Shown here one piece after another: positions 35,545-60,620 of a stretch of DNA of 64,000 nt. This DNA is from a virus (lineage: Duplodnaviria; Caudoviricetes). Each line of letters starts with the position of its first letter. Within the stretch, counting starts at the first letter, position 1. Made by a program: the position numbers and the translations under genes. Location of the stretch: IMG/VR virus record IMGVR_UViG_3300033074_001483, positions 21,517 through 85,516 of that record; one strand, given 5' to 3'. The notes below the pieces were generated by a model. It had not been told where the DNA came from and ran no database searches. It saw nothing but the letters and a program-made list of their open reading frames with translations.

Positions 35545-36225
35545 GGCAACTTGTCAGTCACCCACGATGTTACTCGTTATCCAAACCTATTTCTACGAGC
35601 TGCACGTAGATGCCAGTCTTGACCCTACCTCGGAACCTCGGTCAATCCTATAGCACGTTACTACAACAAAAGCCGCCGTTCCGCAGCGACGTGTCAGTTT
35701 AGAAATTCGGTGCTCATGGTCTGCTTATAGTACTCTGGAGGTCTCGCAGAAGCCCTGACCCAGACACGAGCAAAATATCGTTTGCAGATCGTATCGTCGA
35801 ACGATACGCTGTGCAAACGGAAAAATGGTGAGATGGGCAGTGCAAACTGCTTTCTACAGGGGGGACGGCACCACGTCTGTCCCTTATGGAGTACTCCTTT
35901 CGGGACGCCCATCTCATTCTGTTTTTGTCGCAGCCGTAGCCGCAATTCTGTTCTATCTCTACATTTTTCTCAAGGTCAACCATACGGTTGCCAAGTCCCT
36001 CACGGGATGCCTCAACCCGGGCTTTACAATGGGAAGCACTACCCTTTGCCCTGTTTGAGTTGCTGTTACTTTGTGGTGTTAACGAATGGTTTGCCCACGG
36101 TCAAGAGGGCGTCGGTAAAGACCCATTCTCCCAAACAGCTGCTTTACAGTTGCGAACTTCCTCTGGTTGCTCCTGTTCAGGCGGAACCAGCGTAGAGTCG
36201 CTTACGACAAAATTCTCAAAGAACT
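35545..36225 (-). ncRNA. Large structured ncRNA candidate (GOLLD/ROOL size class)
   Basis: ~680 nt without a credible ORF, many long hairpins, own promoter and boxA-like motif, adjacent to a tRNA. Confidence 0.6.
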
Positions 36226-38343: not shown

Positions 38344-38417
38344 TGGTGGGCCATGATGGTTACGCTCCATCGTCTCATCAGTGTCAGTGATGAATTCTAC
38401 TATTAAACTAACAGCCC
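38344..38417 (-). tRNA. tRNA-Val(GAC)
   Basis: CATCA-CTGACAC-TGATG; T-loop AGCGTAA; CCA. Confidence 0.9.
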
Positions 38418-46147: not shown

Positions 46148-46386
46148 GGGGAGGATTTCACGGGCGTTCCATTGTCTCCAGCGTGCTGCCATTGACACTA
46201 CCGCCCCATAAGCGGGGCAGGTGGGACTCGAACCCACACTTCACGGATTACTGTCTATCTCCATCAGAGGATTATCACTTGGAAACACGTCTGTTTCAAC
46301 CTTGTTCCACCCACACATGGCCTTGCGGAGTTTGAATCCGGTTCTTCGGCGTAGAGGCCGACATTTTACCACATAAACTATCGGGC
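46148..46386 (-). pseudogene. Three degenerate tRNA-like sequences (46148-46207, 46212-46316, 46318-46386)
   Basis: Recognisable D or T arms but broken acceptor or anticodon arms; the last has a 6-nt loop CTCTAC. Confidence 0.55.
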
Positions 46387-46608: not shown

Positions 46609-47049
46609 TTATGAAATTCTGTTTTTGTACCAATGATTATTCTTAGCAAACTCTCGTTTGATATGGCAGTGGGCACATAAAAGATCACATTTCGCAATCT
46701 CTTTCAATATGCGTTTCCAACCGAATATCGTTAGCATTGTTGAAACATCATAATCCTTTTCGTTGGGATCACGATGATGAAATTGAAACAAGCGGATGTC
46801 GGTCTCGGGACAATCTTTACAAGTCTTACCTTGTAAAAACTGAATCATATTTTCCCGATTTCTATCACGCTGAATGCGTTTATTTTTGTAAGCTCTTTTT
46901 AACGCATCTTTTCTATGTTTTTTGTAATGTTTTCTGCTGTAAGAATCGTGGCATTCTTTACATTTGCTTTGCAAGATTCCCATTGCTTTGTTACGGAATG
47001 AGAAATGCGACTCGTCTTTTGGATTATGACATGCACTACATATTTTCAT
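46609..47049 (-). CDS. HNH homing endonuclease
   Basis: CKDCPE.DIRLFQFHH..EIAKCDLLCAHCH; paralog of 31414, 32676 and 49019. Confidence 0.88.
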   Translation of the reverse strand: MKICSACHNPKDESHFSFRNKAMGILQSKCKECHDSYSRKHYKKHRKDALKRAYKNKRIQRDRNRENMIQFLQGKTCKDCPETDIRLFQFHHRDPNEKDYDVSTMLTIFGWKRILKEIAKCDLLCAHCHIKREFAKNNHWYKNRIS

Positions 47050-47367: not shown

Positions 47368-47502
47368 TGGAGCCGTGCGATGGACTTGGCACCATCAGTT
47401 CATCTGGCATTATTCATCGCAGGGCAATCACCCCGCTAACTTCTCCGTTCAGGGAGACTCTTTGCTTTTCAAGAGACGTGTTCTACATTGAACTAGCACG
47501 GC
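47368..47502 (-). ncRNA. Oversized tRNA-like RNA (135 nt)
   Basis: 7-bp acceptor GCCGTGC/GCACGGC + TCCA, D arm, T-like arm, ~60-nt multi-hairpin insert. Confidence 0.75.
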
Positions 47503-47603: not shown

Positions 47604-47713
47604 TGGTCGCACCGATAGGATTTGCACCTAACTTTTCCAAACTCCTTGTAAGGCGTTGGTTACTTGCAGATACCTCCGGGGTACGCCTCGGCCCTACTGC
47701 CAACTACAGTGCG
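47604..47713 (-). ncRNA. Oversized tRNA-like RNA (110 nt)
   Basis: 7-bp acceptor + ACCA, T arm TGCAAAT loop, 7-bp GAGGCGT/ACGCCTT stem with large loop instead of an anticodon. Confidence 0.7.
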
Positions 47714-47818: not shown

Positions 47819-48736
47819 ATGAAATCCGTGATGGACGGAAAAAATCTTGCGGATGCTGCCAAAGACCTCTCTATTTCTACCAAAGAGGCGAAAGAACTTC
47901 TCAAATCTGGAATGCAACGTGCCAACCTTCAAAATCTCTACGAACTAATCATATTTGGACTGAGAAGTGGTATTATCAAAGATGACCCCATTGACATTAA
48001 AGATGTAGAAAAACAATTTGAAACTCCCGGGTTTTACGAGGCTAACCCAACTTGGTTGCACATTATGAATCAACTTGTCACTGGCAAAACTCTTCAAGAC
48101 ATTGAGCGTGAAGGTGGTGGTGCAAAAACAAGCATTCAGAACGCAATCAAAAAACTTTCAGGAAAGTTTGGACTTGGGGATTCGATGGCAAAACTCATTC
48201 GTTTTTCTTTGGCAGCTTTGAATCCCATCACTCCAAACCCCCGTGTTCGTGGATTCAAACCATTTGTTTCATGGGCACAAAAACAAGGAGTTGGTTCTCA
48301 ATTTCCATTGATAAAAAGTAAGTTTCGTTCTGCCGATGTTGACCCAGAGATTCCCGTTTACAATGCATCCAAAAAATACAATGTTGGTGACACGGGTGAT
48401 AAACCCAAACTTCCAAAACCAGCAATGTCTTTTGCTGATAGGAAAAAACTTCCACCACCAATTGTAAGAAATACTTCCATTCAAACCGCATTGTGGTTAT
48501 TGGGTATAGATAAAAAAGTCATTACTCCTACCGCACTTCAAGGATCGTTTTGGAACAGACCCTCTTCTTTCTTATGGAAGCTTCTGGAACTTGCCAAGAG
48601 ACGATATGAACTTGAAATGTTGCATAATCATCCTGACAGAGGCGGCGACTCACGACGAGCGGCACAAATTAGTGCTGCTTGGGAATTAGTGAGACACTTG
48701 TTCGCCAAGCACGGATACGAACTTCACAAGCGGTAA
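47819..48736 (+). CDS. Tandem LuxR-type HTH protein with C-terminal J-domain-like HPD motif
   Basis: GKNLADAAKDLSIST.. and GKTLQDI.. HTHs; RYELEMLHNHPDRGGD..ISAAWE. Confidence 0.65.
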   Translation: MKSVMDGKNLADAAKDLSISTKEAKELLKSGMQRANLQNLYELIIFGLRSGIIKDDPIDIKDVEKQFETPGFYEANPTWLHIMNQLVTGKTLQDIEREGGGAKTSIQNAIKKLSGKFGLGDSMAKLIRFSLAALNPITPNPRVRGFKPFVSWAQKQGVGSQFPLIKSKFRSADVDPEIPVYNASKKYNVGDTGDKPKLPKPAMSFADRKKLPPPIVRNTSIQTALWLLGIDKKVITPTALQGSFWNRPSSFLWKLLELAKRRYELEMLHNHPDRGGDSRRAAQISAAWELVRHLFAKHGYELHKR

Positions 48737-48828: not shown

Positions 48829-48933
48829 TGGCGAGATGCCGAACCCTTTCGGGCTTGCCGGGGTTTGAACCCAGCTCACTGTTCATTTTCAATATGAATG
48901 TTTTTCCTTTTGGGATTTGCTGCAAGCATCTCG
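48829..48933 (-). ncRNA. RCAGCWA-helix family RNA with anticodon-like and T arms, CCA end
   Basis: CGAGATGC/GCATCTCG + CCA; GCAGCAA; TTCAT/ATGAA arm; T arm TTCAAAC loop; GAAA hairpin. Confidence 0.75.
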
Positions 48934-48939
48934 TAAATT

Positions 48940-49028
48940 TGGTGCAGCCGACAGGATTCGAACCTGCGTGGGAAATGGTTATCCATCAGCTTAAAAGGCT
49001 GTTGCCTCGGCCACTTGGCTACGACTGC
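48940..49028 (-). tRNA. tRNA(TTT) (Lys anticodon) on a type II-like scaffold
   Basis: Loop CT-TTT-AA; Leu/Tyr-type D arm; ~18-nt variable region; A73; CCA. Confidence 0.85.
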
Positions 49029-49435
49029 ATTTGACGTTTTTTCCACTCCAACTTTCTATGACAATTGGAGCAAATAACATCGCATTTTTCAATTTCAGCA
49101 AGAAGTTTCTCTTTTGGCCATCCAGCATAAACAGCCTTGCTGATTTCCATCTCTTTTGTAGATGGGTCTCGATGATGAAAATCCAATGTAGCAATATGAA
49201 TTTCTGGGCATAGCAAACATTTGGATTTTGCTTTGATGTCATTGACTAAATCCAGAAGCTCCGCTTTTTTGCTCTTGATATATGCCTTGTGTTTTTGTTT
49301 ATTTGAGGCATAGTATTTCTTGGATGATTTGCGATTACACTCTCGGCACACGCCCTGCAATCCATCTTTTTTGGATGCTTTGCGATTAAACTCGGAGAGC
49401 GGTTTTTTCTTTTTACAAGTATTACATCGTTTCAT
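49019..49435 (-). CDS. HNH homing endonuclease
   Basis: CLLCPE..LDFHH..EIEKCDVICSNCH; TAG stop inside the tRNA. Confidence 0.88.
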   Translation of the reverse strand: MKRCNTCKKKKPLSEFNRKASKKDGLQGVCRECNRKSSKKYYASNKQKHKAYIKSKKAELLDLVNDIKAKSKCLLCPEIHIATLDFHHRDPSTKEMEISKAVYAGWPKEKLLAEIEKCDVICSNCHRKLEWKKRQMQS

Positions 49436-49487
49436 ATACTCATAAATAGTGATTTTAACTCTCAAAAGAGTTAAAATCCAAAAGAAC

Positions 49488-49622
49488 TAGATACGGTTTT
49501 TTTCTTCCCTTGCGGGACCGACGTTCTACATTAAACTACAGCCCCGATATGTGGCGGGGCCGACTGGGTTTGTCCAGTACTTGCGGTTTGACATAAGAAT
49601 GTTTTCTTGCTGTCCGTATCTA
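49488..49622 (-). ncRNA. Circularly permuted tRNA-like RNA (Asp-like) in an RCAGCWA helix, 135 nt
   Basis: 3' half + GCCA, 6-nt linker, then 5' half; 9-bp closing helix. Confidence 0.8.
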
Positions 49623-49630
49623 AATTGAAT

Positions 49631-49860
49631 GGGAAAGATAGTGTGCTATTACGCCAAAGACCTCAGACCGTCGCTTTCTCTTTCTCTTTGATTAGAATGA
49701 TTTGCTGCTTCTGCCTGTACCTCTGACGAGATACGAATGCGATACTTGCGATTAGGTGTGCCTCTATCCCTATGTTTCCACGGGGCGAAAAAAGACAAAC
49801 ATTTGCACTCAGTCACTCATTATAGGATTGCTGCCTCTAAGCCAACCTCCTAACTTTCCT
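49631..49860 (-). ncRNA. 23S rRNA L11-binding (H43-H44) domain mimic with internal insertion
   Basis: GGAGGTTGGCTTAGAGGCAGCAATCCT..GAGTG and GCGTAATAGCACACT, closed by GGAAAG/CTTTCC. Confidence 0.75.
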
Positions 49861-49865
49861 CAAAT

Positions 49866-49942
49866 TGGTAGCCCCACTCGGCATCGAACCGAGTTTCTCT
49901 GCTTGAAAAACAGAAGTCCTTACCAGACTAGACGATGGGGCC
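49866..49942 (-). tRNA. tRNA-Glu(TTC), copy 2
   Basis: TCTGT-TTTTCAA-GCAGA; CCA. Confidence 0.9.
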
Positions 49943-49950
49943 ATAAAAGC

Positions 49951-50085
49951 AAGATGCGTTTTTTTGTAGGCTTTCGCCGACTCCTGCTCTACTCACTGAG
50001 CTACCCAGCCATATGGTGGCTGAGGGTGGATTTGCACACACCGACACGGAGTTCCTCATACATTTTGTTTAGCTGTACGCATCTT
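49951..50085 (-). ncRNA. Circularly permuted tRNA-like RNA (Phe-derived) in an RCAGCWA helix, 135 nt
   Basis: 3' half + ACCA, 3-nt linker TAT, then 5' half; 9-bp closing helix. Confidence 0.82.
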
Positions 50086-50089
50086 AAAG

Positions 50090-50164
50090 TGGCCCGGACA
50101 ATCGGTAACGCTCCGATCTCTTCAGTTTTTCAGACTGACGCTAATCTATCTCAGCTATGTCCGG
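50090..50164 (-). tRNA. tRNA-Phe(GAA)
   Basis: TCAGT-CTGAAAA-ACTGA; T-loop AGCGTTA; G73; CCA. Confidence 0.85.
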
Positions 50165-50940: not shown

Positions 50941-51103
50941 TGGCTCCAACAACGAGACTCGAACTCGCACATCCAGCTCAAATTGCCGGAATGCTTCCTA
51001 CTAGAAATGCGGAGTGTTTTCATGCTTACTTCATCATCCTTATTACGTAATTCGGGATGCCTTCATCCATTACTTCTCCGACTAGCGATTACATCATGCT
51101 GGA
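50941..51103 (-). ncRNA. Oversized tRNA-like RNA (163 nt)
   Basis: 7-bp acceptor TCCAGCA/TGTTGGA + GCCA; canonical T arm; ~115-nt core with CTAG and CGGAG/CTCCG helices. Confidence 0.75.
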
Positions 51104-51111
51104 ATTGAAAG

Positions 51112-51201
51112 TGGTGCCAGAATTTGGATTTGAACCAATACATACCTGTGGTTTATTGCGGCAAACATCTTGATGAAAAGCTAGATGTCTTTTCATTCTG
51201 G
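51112..51201 (-). ncRNA. tRNA-like RNA (90 nt) without canonical D or anticodon arms
   Basis: GCCAGAA/TTCTGGC + ACCA; TTCAAAT T-loop; 8-bp AGACATCT/AGATGTTT arm. Confidence 0.65.
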
Positions 51202-53513: not shown

Positions 53514-53587
53514 TGGTCGTAGTACGTGGTACTGCCCCACGGTCTAGCGATTATCAGTCGCTTGCTCTACTTTTGAGCTATACTACG
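53514..53587 (-). tRNA. tRNA-Ile(GAT)
   Basis: AGCGA-CTGATAA-TCGCT; T-loop GGCAGTA; CCA. Confidence 0.9.
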
Positions 53588-53980
53588 TTTGCTTTGGAGA
53601 TATAAAGCTCCTTCTCGCATTCTTTTTCTACCTTCGTGAGAAGCATTTTTTACTCCCCACGTTTCTGTTTGAGTATGACAGTTGGGACAAATCATTCTCA
53701 AATTTTCACGGCGGTTATCTTTTTTGTTTCCGTTGATGTGGTCTATTTGAAGACGTAGTGGTTTTTTGTTCCACTCCATTCCTTGTCCACATTCTCCACA
53801 AACCTGTGGAAAGTTTTCATATATCCACCGCCTCATTTGTTTATTCATTGTAGAACCAAGAACAAGACGTTGACTTATGGTATAATCACCACGGCATTTG
53901 TTAGAACAAAATTTTCCACGAGTTTGACTTGGGCGGAATTCAAACTGTTTCTTACAGAATTGGCAGATTGCTTCTTGCAT
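53567..53980 (-). CDS. HNH homing endonuclease
   Basis: CGECG..LQIDHINGNKKDNRRENLRMICPNCHTQT; stop inside tRNA-Ile. Confidence 0.9.
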   Translation of the reverse strand: MQEAICQFCKKQFEFRPSQTRGKFCSNKCRGDYTISQRLVLGSTMNKQMRRWIYENFPQVCGECGQGMEWNKKPLRLQIDHINGNKKDNRRENLRMICPNCHTQTETWGVKNASHEGRKRMREGALYLQSKRSIAQK

Positions 53981-54183: not shown

Positions 54184-54187
54184 ATAC

Positions 54188-54246
54188 GAGATACATTTTC
54201 TTTGTTTGCTTAACAGGCAAGTAGAATTGGTTGCTGTGAGTATCTC
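54188..54246 (-). ncRNA. RCAGCWA mini-RNA with Asn anticodon stem-loop
   Basis: GAGATAC/GTATCTC; ACAGCAA; TTGC-CTGTTAA-GCAA. Confidence 0.72.
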
Positions 54247-54316
54247 AAAAATCGCCGTGTCCCACAAGATAGTGAGATGATCGCTCACGAATTGCGAGCA
54301 CGGACTAAAAAGGACT

Positions 54317-54370
54317 AGGTGCTGTTTTTTCATTTTACAGATGAATGATTTTTGCTTGCTGCAAGCACCT
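54317..54370 (-). ncRNA. RCAGCWA mini-RNA with Tyr anticodon stem-loop
   Basis: AGGTGCT/AGCACCT; GCAGCAA; TTCAT-CTGTAAA-ATGAA. Confidence 0.72.
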
Positions 54371-54375
54371 AAAAG

Positions 54376-56921: not shown

Positions 56922-56995
56922 TGGAGCCCAAGGACGGTTACGCTCCGTCGTCTCAGCTTTACCAAAGCCGTGTACTGCTATTGTACTACATGGGC
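56922..56995 (-). tRNA. tRNA-Thr(GGT)
   Basis: CGGCT-TTGGTAA-AGCTG; CCA. Confidence 0.88.
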
Positions 56996-58399: not shown

Positions 58400-59536
58400 T
58401 TATTCCTTTTTGAATTCTTTCTCAGGGGCGTTGTACGCTTCCTTCAAATACTGTGTTGGGTCTTGAAGGTAATGAATACTTTTCTCATATCCGTCAGATG
58501 GTTTGTAATATCCATGAGGATACATTTCAATGTGGAGCATACTTGGCTTCCAACCCTGAAGTTCTGGATGCTGTGGTCTATCTGGCGGAATTACCCGCAG
58601 TACTTCACCAATGCGAGTATCGCCCCGACGAACTTTGTCACCAACACGTACGCACGGCTTGATTTCGCCATAGCACACCACACCCGTTGCTCCTTCAACA
58701 AGAACACAGTCGGTATCCAACCACCAAGGACTGTTATCTTTTGGACCCGTGAATGGTTCAACCGCTACAACTATACCATTTTCAACTGGCACAACGGGTG
58801 TACCAACATCACAATACAAATCCACGCCTGTATGCGTAGAGTTCTTTCGCTTGGCATTGAATGCTCCCGGGTGAGTGCAAACGGGAATGCCTTCACAAAG
58901 TTGTTTCTCCCACGGATATTGGCCGGGGATGGGGAAAGACCATCGCAACGCCTCTTGGGTCGCTTCTACAATATCCTCAATGTTTGCCATAGCACCCATT
59001 CCATAGGTATTACAGGCAAGCATCTTTGCTTGGGGAGGAACAATTTTGTATCCCCAACTACGAAGCGTCTTGATATGCTGCTCTGTAATGGGATGATTCC
59101 ACATGTGAGTATTCATTGCGGGTGCAATGATAACAGGACGATTTTGATCCCACGCCCGAGCAACAGACGTAAGAAGATTATCGCACAATCCATTTGCCAG
59201 CTTCGCAAGTGTATTGGCAGAACATGGAGCAATCACCAAAACACTATACTTATCCCGAAGCTCAATATGGAGAACGGGGTCATCTTTTCTCCATTTGGAT
59301 TCCATGTGGTCATCATGGTTGAAAAACTTGCCTTTGCTCGGCGTATCCGAATGAAACCAGTGCCACTCGTGCCATTCACGCAAGACTTTGATTCCATTGA
59401 ACTCGTCTGAGACAAAATGCTCCGCTCTCGGTGTGAGAACAGTCGTTACATCTCCAACTTTCTGAAGCTCATTGACCAGTTTCACGTACAAAACTGATGC
59501 AACGCTTCCAGTTAGTCCAAGCAATACTTTTCTCAT
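58400..59536 (-). CDS. coaC: Phosphopantothenoylcysteine decarboxylase fused to an M23 peptidase-like domain
   Basis: GLTGSVA, HIEL, APCSANTLAKLANGLCDNL, PAMNTHMW, LAC..G.GAM; C-terminal HTGVDL..LHIE. Confidence 0.88.
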   Translation of the reverse strand: MRKVLLGLTGSVASVLYVKLVNELQKVGDVTTVLTPRAEHFVSDEFNGIKVLREWHEWHWFHSDTPSKGKFFNHDDHMESKWRKDDPVLHIELRDKYSVLVIAPCSANTLAKLANGLCDNLLTSVARAWDQNRPVIIAPAMNTHMWNHPITEQHIKTLRSWGYKIVPPQAKMLACNTYGMGAMANIEDIVEATQEALRWSFPIPGQYPWEKQLCEGIPVCTHPGAFNAKRKNSTHTGVDLYCDVGTPVVPVENGIVVAVEPFTGPKDNSPWWLDTDCVLVEGATGVVCYGEIKPCVRVGDKVRRGDTRIGEVLRVIPPDRPQHPELQGWKPSMLHIEMYPHGYYKPSDGYEKSIHYLQDPTQYLKEAYNAPEKEFKKE

Positions 59537-59880
59537 AATCCTCTTTCTCTTACTTCCAACTCGCCCAAATTACCAACAGCGTGTGCCAATTCGTGATAGT
59601 AAACTTGTCTCACAGATTCCATCGCTCCTTTCATATCTTGATTGCAGTGTTCATAAATCTGCCCTGCAAAAATAGCAATGGTGTTTGTCCATTTGTTATA
59701 ACACCCCAAAACCGTAGCATTCTTCCACACATCAAGCGGAAACTGATACTTATCCACTATAGTAAGAATCTGGTCTGCTTTCTTCCCCACTTCTGGTGGA
59801 AGATCATTTTGTGCCTGTACAATAGTTGTATCTACTGCATCACAAATCTCATTCCACTGTTCGTCGGTGAATTCAATCAT
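59533..59880 (-). CDS. Small zincin-like metalloprotein
   Basis: YYHELAHAVG HExxH motif. Confidence 0.7.
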   Translation of the reverse strand: MIEFTDEQWNEICDAVDTTIVQAQNDLPPEVGKKADQILTIVDKYQFPLDVWKNATVLGCYNKWTNTIAIFAGQIYEHCNQDMKGAMESVRQVYYHELAHAVGNLGELEVRERGL

Positions 59881-60620
59881 AATTTGACAGTGTGTTCGGC
59901 AACCATTCGTGCCAAGAAATTTGGGTCGCTTGGGTTGGTCTTGTAAGTGACGGGTTCTTTATTTGGGAATACCAAATGTACCTGATGTTTATTTTCCTTG
60001 ATGTCCTGCAAATCATTGGCAACAATCATATCACATTTGTTATCGGCGATACTCTTCTTAGCAGCATCAATGAGTTGATAATCTTTACTACCAACGAGAA
60101 GTTTGAACCCCACCAATTTGGTTGTAGGCAACCACTCTTTGATAAAGTAAATCAACTTTGGCAATTGCTCCAACTCAATCTTGAGAGCATCATTGGAGCG
60201 AATCTTTCCTTTGACGGGGTTCTTGACGCCATAATCGCTAACCGCAGCAGCGAGAACTACAACATCTGGACGATAGATTTTGAGAATGCGCTCAAGGCGT
60301 TCCTTGTAATCATCGAAGGTGCGATATTCCATCTGTTTGTAGCGATTGAGCATCGGAACTTTTTCCTTCATCATCTCAATCGCCAGAAGATGTTTCATCG
60401 TCCAGCCTTCCGTATCACCCACACCATAACCTTCGGCAAGGTCAATCTCAAATTTGAATGGAGTACGTCCTCCTTTGGCAGTAAAGAAAAAGACTTCATG
60501 CCCCAACTTGAGCAACTCCAAGGCAATCTTGCTGCCGAAAGTGCCACGAGACATATTCGTAATGTCCCGCACCATATCAATGGGTATTTTAGTGCCGCCC
60601 GACGTAACGAGGATATTCAT
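59877..60620 (-). CDS. coaB: Phosphopantothenate--cysteine ligase
   Basis: LVTSGGTKIPID.VR.ITN.S.G.FG, LAAAVSDY, LVGFKL, IVANDL motifs. Confidence 0.9.
   Translation of the reverse strand: MNILVTSGGTKIPIDMVRDITNMSRGTFGSKIALELLKLGHEVFFFTAKGGRTPFKFEIDLAEGYGVGDTEGWTMKHLLAIEMMKEKVPMLNRYKQMEYRTFDDYKERLERILKIYRPDVVVLAAAVSDYGVKNPVKGKIRSNDALKIELEQLPKLIYFIKEWLPTTKLVGFKLLVGSKDYQLIDAAKKSIADNKCDMIVANDLQDIKENKHQVHLVFPNKEPVTYKTNPSDPNFLARMVAEHTVKL

What the first reader, a model, noticed from the sequence alone, without database searches (positions are those of the whole stretch)
49488..50085. Two 135-nt circularly permuted tRNA genes split at the anticodon loop
Seen: both read closing helix, 3' tRNA half with NCCA, a 3- or 6-nt linker, 5' tRNA half, GNRA hairpin, closing helix. 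49951-50085: ...TGAGGA-ACTCC-GTGTC-T arm-CTCAGCC-ACCA-tat-GGCTGGG-TA-GCTC..GAGC-A-GGAGT-C (Phe-like body; GGAGT/ACTCC pair). 49488-49622: ...TGTCAA-ACCGC..CGGCCCC-GCCA-catatc-GGGGCTG..GAAC-G-TCGGT-C. Joining C32 to U33 in each rebuilds a normal 7-nt loop: CU-GUC-AA with G73 (self-consistent Asp) and CU-GAG-GA. Known: permuted tRNA genes occur in Cyanidioschyzon merolae and some archaea via a circular intermediate; YrlA RNAs also use T-acceptor-D order. Inference: either a phage route to mature tRNA through cleavage and ligation, or stable anticodon-less mimics immune to anticodon nucleases.
Basis: partly seen in the sequence, partly recalled or inferred. Interest (0 to 1): 0.9.

Follow-up and report, generated by a model that had tools for sequence, protein, structure and literature searches.

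The report
Phage tRNA mimics on Y-RNA-like clamp
Two real RNA genes in a jumbo phage look like tRNAs written back to front, but they belong to a family of clamped tRNA look-alikes that travels with a Ro60-shaped phage protein, so they are more likely mimics or decoys than precursors that get spliced into working tRNAs.

Summary
In detail: both 135-nt elements have the stated order, a 7-bp acceptor stem, NCCA plus linker, and rebuild a 7-nt loop on paper. It closes five RNAs in this array, three carrying only an intact anticodon stem-loop (one with a T arm). Of 25 family members from related phages, 7 have no acceptor arm yet mostly keep the same anticodon junction, including two in RNA1's syntenic slot. 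Four more lack NCCA, only 7 of 18 acceptor-bearing members rebuild a canonical loop, and none has a BHB motif. In other phages the handle sits beside DUF2828, whose model matches Ro60. E. coli phage Bas63 gp130, a published counter of Ppl defence, is DUF2828 and is followed by four handle RNAs. Best reading: YrlA-like mimics, probably opened at the CCA linker into two-piece RNAs, not spliced tRNAs. No DUF2828 gene was found in this 24%-complete genome or its partial relatives, and there are no transcript data. The scan noted this handle class before on many other genomes; I found no paper describing it.

The parts
49951..50085 (-). RNA2: handle-closed permuted tRNA-like RNA (Leu-like, GAG, A73)
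   Evidence: 115 bits to own model R1
50070..50085 (-). RNA2 handle, 5' side: 9-nt helix strand plus ACAGCUA
   Evidence: invariant columns
50014..50058 (-). RNA2 3' tRNA half, U33 to CCA (anticodon segment 50058-50053; CCA ends at 50014)
50011..50013 (-). RNA2 3-nt linker ending A-U, like the leaders of ordinary tRNAs in the array
49979..50010 (-). RNA2 5' tRNA half, G1 to C32
49951..49978 (-). RNA2 GNRA hairpin, second helix strand, A-tract and 3' strand of the closing helix
49488..49622 (-). RNA1: handle-closed permuted tRNA-like RNA (Asp-like, GUC, G73)
   Evidence: 109 bits
49607..49622 (-). RNA1 handle, 5' side: 9-nt helix strand plus ACAGCAA
49552..49593 (-). RNA1 3' tRNA half, U33 to CCA, with a 6-nt T loop
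49546..49551 (-). RNA1 6-nt linker
49516..49545 (-). RNA1 5' tRNA half, G1 to C32
49488..49515 (-). RNA1 GNRA hairpin, A-tract and closing strand; a 12-bp hairpin (49451-49478) flagged as terminator-like follows
48833..48932 (-). Sister handle RNA: intact anticodon stem-loop (UGA), a T arm and a hairpin
54187..54247 (-). Sister handle RNA: intact anticodon stem-loop only (GUU, Asn)
54316..54371 (-). Sister handle RNA: intact anticodon stem-loop only (GUA, Tyr)

Best explanation
The two genes encode Y-RNA-like tRNA mimics. Each has a protein-binding handle (terminal helix, unpaired ACAGC(A/U)A, A-rich opposite strand) and a tRNA-shaped cargo joined through the anticodon stem, the topology of YrlA. 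Shown from sequence: the anatomy, its conservation, the interchangeable cargo, and the handle's linkage to DUF2828 in other phages. Inferred steps: (1) they are co-transcribed with the tRNA array and released by processing of the flanking tRNAs; (2) the handle binds a DUF2828/Ro60-like ring protein (about 0.7, since the gene has not been found in this clade); (3) where NCCA and a tRNA-type leader are encoded, RNase P and 3' exonucleases open the acceptor loop, giving a two-piece RNA with a free and possibly chargeable CCA end (about 0.6); (4) C32 and U33 are not ligated, and U33-N38 is displayed in a junction stacked on the anticodon stem; (5) the particle acts as a decoy or tether against host defences that attack tRNA, mostly Asp, Tyr and Asn types (about 0.4 for this function; RNA repair or decay tethering is the alternative).
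For: Five handles in the array with different cargo. 25 distinct clade members: 7 lack the acceptor arm but mostly keep the junction, 5 of them rebuilding a canonical loop by script. In two syntenic relatives RNA1's slot holds an acceptor-less GUC version (L159, L194), and RNA2's slot holds versions without CCA (L159, L193). Gut-phage members have a whole anticodon loop 5' of the T arm and a sealed acceptor. Handle-bearing loci picked by RNA pattern alone hold DUF2828 next to the handles (L119, L121, L130, L138, L145; L117 within the same 2.4-kb locus). All four near-complete records hit by model R1 encode it. The complete relative G021 lacks both. The DUF2828 model (pLDDT 93.8) has Ro60 proteins as its top 13 Foldseek hits, best E 2.6e-7. 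Bas63 gp130 is DUF2828+DUF7788, is followed by four handle RNAs, one with T-acceptor-D order, and counters Ppl defence (10.1101/2024.10.10.617714). M. smegmatis YrlA with a 7-bp acceptor is cut by RNase P and gains CCA (PMC4201824). NCCA in 14 of 18 acceptor-bearing members with linkers of 2-9 nt that mostly end A-U, as do ordinary leaders here (-1 U in 28/39, -2 A in 25/39). The phage already has two ordinary Asp(GUC) and two Leu(GAG) genes.
Against: No DUF2828, DUF7788 or TROVE gene in the own record (24% complete), in partial relatives G003, G011, G019, G024, or in about 54 kb of a 168-kb relative. Binding of the handle to DUF2828 rests on gene linkage only. Rfam YrlA scores 18.9 bits against a cut-off of 69 and the GNCGAAN motif is absent. 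21 of 25 members keep exact 7-nt spacing, and the discriminator follows the anticodon in 11 of 13 (members are not independent), which also fits splicing. No RNA data.
Confidence: 0.62

Rival explanations
1. True circularly permuted tRNA genes: an unknown nuclease, perhaps guided by the handle, cuts after C32 and before U33, a phage RNA ligase circularises the body, and RNase P plus 3' trimming open it into mature tRNA-Asp and tRNA-Leu.
For: Both window copies and 5 homologues rebuild canonical loops and carry NCCA. 7-nt spacing in 21 of 25. Spliced RNA2 is called tRNA-Leu by ARAGORN. Discriminator agrees with anticodon in 11 of 13. Rnl1- and Rnl2-type ligases occur in complete relative G021 and in L192. 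Wang et al. raise the possibility for YrlA (10.1101/312249).
Against: No BHB in 25 of 25; no EndA in 5 records; no RtcB or Rnl in the own record. Syntenic orthologues have lost the acceptor arm or CCA yet kept the junction. 11 of 18 acceptor-bearing members give non-canonical loops (A32, C33, pyrimidine 37, 6 or 8 nt). The split point moves to 26/27 in gut phages. Ordinary genes for the same anticodons are present.
Confidence: 0.13
2. The RNAs are unspliced tRNA mimics, but in this clade they act without a Ro60-like partner: as free decoys, or bound to a host or unrelated phage protein.
For: No DUF2828 or TROVE gene in any handle-bearing record of this clade examined. In many other phages the gene lies next to the handles, which it does not do here.
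Against: All such records are 6-34% complete or were read only in part. The handle word is invariant in the clade alignment, as expected if the same protein family binds it. G021 lacks both handle and gene.
Confidence: 0.15
3. The handle is excised and the cargo ligated at 32/33, but the products are decoys: small circles from acceptor-less copies and tRNA-like molecules from full copies.
For: It would explain why 7-nt spacing and C32 are kept even without an acceptor; ligases exist in relatives.
Against: No recognisable splice signal. Sister handles already carry intact loops with nothing to ligate. Spacing could be kept simply to display the anticodon.
Confidence: 0.07
4. Decayed rearrangements of tandem tRNA genes with no function.
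For: A 3' half, spacer and 5' half arise naturally at the border of tandem tRNA genes; T loops are degenerate (5 of 16 with TTC against 33 of 39 ordinary tRNAs).
Against: Compensatory changes in 14 of 20 pairs, conserved synteny across genomes and an invariant handle.
Confidence: 0.02

Closest known systems
YrlA Y RNAs with Rsr/Ro60 (Rfam RF02553; Chen et al. 2014, PMC4201824; Wang et al. 2018, 10.1101/312249), especially M. smegmatis YrlA
   Same: Terminal stem module joined through the anticodon stem to a T-acceptor-D tRNA-like domain; found in phages; 7-bp acceptor predicted to be cut by RNase P; sister RNAs with simpler cargo; partner with a Ro60 fold.
   Different: Handle word ACAGCAA rather than GNCGAAN; partner family DUF2828/DUF7788 rather than TROVE (and not found here); CCA encoded in the gene; anticodon segment retained, whereas YrlA lacks the anticodon loop; acceptor-less forms; 18.9 bits against 69.
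Circularly permuted tRNA genes of Cyanidioschyzon merolae, green algae and Thermofilum pendens (Soma 2014, PMC3978253)
   Same: [quoted passage not shown]
   Different: Those need a BHB motif and the archaeal/eukaryotic splicing endonuclease; neither is found here. Many homologues cannot yield a tRNA.
Bas63 gp130 (Felixounavirus; 10.1101/2024.10.10.617714) and Thermus phage phiLo Ro60 with Yrl1/Yrl2 (PMC12135203)
   Same: Phage Ro60-like proteins. gp130 lies upstream of a tRNA array, is DUF2828 and has four handle RNAs downstream.
   Different: The Bas63 paper only guessed that some annotated tRNAs are Y RNAs and did not identify handle RNAs. The Bas63 permuted RNA has a sealed acceptor without CCA. 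phiLo RNAs use CGAA.
Two-piece (permuted) tmRNA (own knowledge)
   Same: Permuted gene opened at an intervening segment after CCA into a two-piece RNA.
   Different: No G3-U70 pair, no tag reading frame, and a full D arm and anticodon stem are present; ARAGORN and Rfam call no tmRNA.

Membership tests
YrlA (RF02553) | Score at or above the Rfam gathering threshold | tested here: not met
   18.9 bits against 69, E 0.46, RNA2 only
YrlA (RF02553) | T arm, acceptor hairpin, D arm order inside a terminal stem | tested here: met
YrlA (RF02553) | GNCGAAN(0-1)G Rsr-binding motif near the 5' end | tested here: not met
   ACAGC(A/U)A occupies that place
YrlA (RF02553) | TROVE/Rsr gene within about 4 kb on the same strand | tested here: not met
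   No PF05731 or DUF2828 in the 85.5-kb record; the genome is only 24% complete
YrlA (RF02553) | Binds a Ro60 protein | not testable with these tools
   Gene linkage in other phages and fold of DUF2828 only
Circularly permuted tRNA genes (C. merolae / T. pendens type) | 3' half upstream of 5' half with a pairing acceptor and intervening sequence | tested here: met
   7/7 pairs in both
Circularly permuted tRNA genes (C. merolae / T. pendens type) | [quoted passage not shown] | tested here: not met
   0 of 25 members form the 4-bp central helix for a 32/33 junction; relaxed no-H forms were not scored
Circularly permuted tRNA genes (C. merolae / T. pendens type) | tRNA splicing endonuclease available | tested here: inconclusive
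   No PF01974 in 5 records, one complete; host unknown, presumed bacterial
Circularly permuted tRNA genes (C. merolae / T. pendens type) | Joining yields a canonical tRNA across homologues | tested here: not met
   7 of 25 have acceptor, NCCA and a canonical loop together
Circularly permuted tRNA genes (C. merolae / T. pendens type) | Circular intermediate and charged mature tRNA detected | not testable with these tools
Two-piece tmRNA | G3-U70 pair and tag reading frame | tested here: not met
   G3-C70 and C3-G70; no tmRNA call
ACAGCAA-handle RNAs linked to DUF2828 (undescribed; earlier scan notes) | 7-9-bp terminal helix, ACAGC(A/U)A, variable tRNA-derived cargo, several copies in a tRNA array | tested here: met
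ACAGCAA-handle RNAs linked to DUF2828 (undescribed; earlier scan notes) | DUF2828 gene in the same genome | tested here: inconclusive
   Absent from the partial records read

The most novel reading that the evidence does not exclude
These are the first circularly permuted tRNA genes of the bacterial world: a handle-guided cut-and-ligate pathway without BHB or EndA joins C32 to U33 and, after RNase P cleavage, delivers mature tRNA-Asp and tRNA-Leu, with the handle keeping the anticodon loop open and out of reach of anticodon nucleases until then.
Probability: 0.13. Interest if true: 0.92.

Novelty: new variant of a known kind. Interest (0 to 1): 0.6.

Why it matters
The handle/DUF2828 pairing looks like a second, uncatalogued Ro60-Y RNA system, and DUF2828 alone occurs in 696 cultured phage records. 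This clade adds a form no described Y RNA has: an encoded CCA behind a cleavable linker plus a displayed anticodon segment, which could make a chargeable two-piece mimic. The link to Bas63 gp130, which counters the Ppl defence system, gives a laboratory E. coli model in which the long-open question of what tRNA-like Y RNAs do can be tested directly. If splicing were shown instead, it would be a new tRNA maturation route in bacteria.

Tried and rejected
BLAST against cultured phages found only ordinary tRNAs. Protein-guided searches of viral contigs with 47819-48736 and the CoaC-like gene found nothing. The GTDB genome scan returned 13 chance matches and no cellular copy of this clade's form. 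About half of the 23 metagenome pattern hits were chance. A single-sequence fold of DUF2828 failed (pLDDT 36) and was redone with an alignment. A sequence search of the PDB gave no Ro60 hit; the link is structural only. Walking the 168-kb relative over about 54 kb found no DUF2828; the 364- and 312-kb contigs could be read only near the array. Group I and group II intron signals are absent at the junction by inspection. I first took the degenerate elbow as evidence against tRNA function, then down-weighted it: RNA2 has a matched A18/G55 swap that ordinary tRNAs of this phage also show. Automatic register calls were partly shifted; counts come and hand parsing, where L094 and L106 remain doubtful. 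The RNase P-like RNA noted earlier at 35922-36212 gave no Rfam match, so I do not rely on it. Literature searches found no permuted tRNA in a phage and no functional paper on DUF2828; subscription journals are largely missing from that library.

Full report
Setting. The window is part of an 85.5-kb IMG/VR fragment, 24% of a roughly 350-kb jumbo phage. It holds a minus-strand array of at least 40 tRNA genes at 30-57 kb. Neither element is called by ARAGORN or by Rfam at gathering level.

Observation. Both elements are as described. RNA2 (49951-50085) and RNA1 (49488-49622) each read: 9-nt helix strand, ACAGC(A/U)A, A-rich spacer, short helix strand, U33-N38, anticodon-stem 3' strand, variable loop, T arm, acceptor 3' strand, NCCA, linker, acceptor 5' strand, D arm, anticodon-stem 5' strand, C32, GNRA hairpin, A-tract, closing strand. 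They fold better than shuffles (z -5.0 and -2.5). Over 16 homologues, 14 of 20 consensus pairs show changes on both sides. Spliced in silico, RNA2 is called tRNA-Leu(GAG); RNA1 is not called.

The handle. The closing helix plus ACAGC(A/U)A is not specific to these two genes. It closes five RNAs in the array: the two in question, two that carry only an intact anticodon stem-loop (Tyr at 54316-54371, Asn at 54187-54247) and one with a stem-loop plus T arm (48833-48932). A strict scan found 4 in 8 kb against 0.003 expected. The ACAGC core is invariant in the family alignment.

Homologues. Pattern scans, synteny walks and a covariance model gave 25 distinct members in this clade. Eighteen have a 7-bp acceptor hairpin, and 14 of these have NCCA right after position 72, followed by a 2-9-nt linker. 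Four do not (L079, L092, L159, L193). Seven have no acceptor arm: the T arm joins the D arm directly, yet the anticodon segment, N32 and the GNRA hairpin are kept. In the 168-kb and 312-kb relatives the slot of RNA1 holds such an acceptor-less GUC copy; in the 168-kb and 364-kb relatives the slot of RNA2 holds a copy without CCA. A canonical YU-NNN-R loop is rebuilt in 7 of 18 acceptor-bearing and 5 of 7 acceptor-less members, and 7-nt spacing in 21 of 25. So the feature that prompted the splicing idea is at least as common in RNAs that cannot become tRNAs. Most triplets have U35 (Asp, Tyr, Asn types). In gut phages the same handle carries a T-acceptor-D body with the whole anticodon loop on the 5' side and a sealed acceptor, so the split point is not fixed across the family.

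Splicing signals. Known permuted tRNAs need a BHB motif and the splicing endonuclease (PMC3978253). No member forms the BHB central helix, and no EndA was found in five records. The own record has no RtcB, Rnl1 or Rnl2, but the complete relative G021 has Rnl1 and Rnl2 types, so ligation capacity cannot be excluded.

Processing at the linker. NCCA is conserved while the linker varies, and linkers mostly end in A-U like ordinary leaders here. M. smegmatis YrlA, with a 7-bp acceptor, is cut by RNase P and gains CCA in vivo (PMC4201824). I infer the same opening here, giving a two-piece RNA held by the anticodon stem and the handle. The discriminator agrees with the triplet in 11 of 13 members, but these fall into two or three subfamilies, so this is weak. 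It fits a chargeable mimic as well as a mature tRNA.

Protein partner. Loci picked only by the RNA pattern carry a DUF2828/DUF7788 gene beside the handles. All four near-complete records hit by the RNA model encode it, and G021 lacks both. An alignment-based model of DUF2828 (pLDDT 93.8) has only Ro60 proteins among its top 13 matches: Xenopus, human, Deinococcus Rsr and phiLo. Bas63 gp130, reported as Ro60-like and as a counter of Ppl defence, is DUF2828 and is followed by four handle RNAs, one with the permuted body (model R1 E 1e-4). The gap: I found no such gene in this genome fragment or in any partial record of its clade.

Mechanism. Most likely these are unspliced, handle-tethered tRNA mimics. 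They are released from the array transcript, bound by a Ro60-like ring, opened at the acceptor where CCA is encoded, and display an anticodon segment and elbow as a decoy or tether in the conflict over tRNA. Anatomy, conservation and gene linkage in other phages are shown. Expression, cleavage, binding, charging and function are inferred.

Comparison and novelty. They work like YrlA but fail membership (score, motif, neighbouring TROVE gene). They resemble permuted tRNA genes in order but fail the BHB test and the test that homologues rebuild tRNAs. I found no paper on the handle class. I had reached the motif and the DUF2828 lead; one search then showed that the scan had noted the same class on many other genomes, and I reuse its word "handle". 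What this locus adds is the CCA-plus-linker form with a retained anticodon segment, the acceptor-less orthologues, and the Bas63 link. Verdict: real, a new variant of a known kind, interest 0.6; true permuted tRNA genes about 0.13.

Noticed in passing
window 46148-46262 (-): A third T-acceptor-D permuted module in a different frame (short covarying clamp and conserved flanking words, no ACAGCAA). Sealed acceptor here; three relatives (L194:16286, L193:14727, L010:4678) have ACCA in the loop. YrlA model 20 bits, E 0.07.
   Followed up: partly
window about 49797-49850 (-), between the two RNAs: Close copy of the 23S rRNA L11-binding region (Rfam LSU model positions 1081-1156, E 0.011), also present in relative L108. 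Possibly a ribosome mimic beside the tRNA mimics.
   Followed up: partly
window 47368-47502 (-): 135-nt CCA-ending tRNA-shaped RNA with two extra hairpins in the anticodon arm, matched in 6 related contigs at 75-87% with covariation; the apparent anticodon is not conserved.
   Followed up: partly
window 47604-47713, 50941-51103, 51112-51201 (-): Other oversized CCA-ending RNAs, each conserved in related contigs.
   Followed up: partly
L165:16072-16907 (Bas63, MZ501086.1 about 82070-82910): Four unannotated handle RNAs downstream of g130; one overlaps an annotated opposite-strand hypothetical ORF.
   Followed up: partly
L154:9493-11560: A contig in a giant-virus bin carries handle RNAs next to a DUF2828-like gene; it may be bin contamination by a phage.
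   Followed up: no
window 58400-60620 (-): Phage CoaB/CoaC-type flavoprotein genes, one fused to a weak M23 peptidase match, conserved at the head of the tRNA array across the clade.
   Followed up: no
window 50093-50164, 38344-38417, 56922-56995 (-): Ordinary-looking tRNAs with strongly altered T loops; the first is missed by ARAGORN but scores 44.8 bits in Rfam.
   Followed up: no
window 46609-47049, 49019-49465, 53567-53980 (-): HNH or endonuclease VII-like genes inserted between tRNA genes, one directly downstream of RNA1.
   Followed up: no
L002:6336-8789: An 817-aa phage protein with a eukaryote-type RdRP-like domain (PF05183, E 2e-11) near a handle-bearing tRNA cluster.
   Followed up: no
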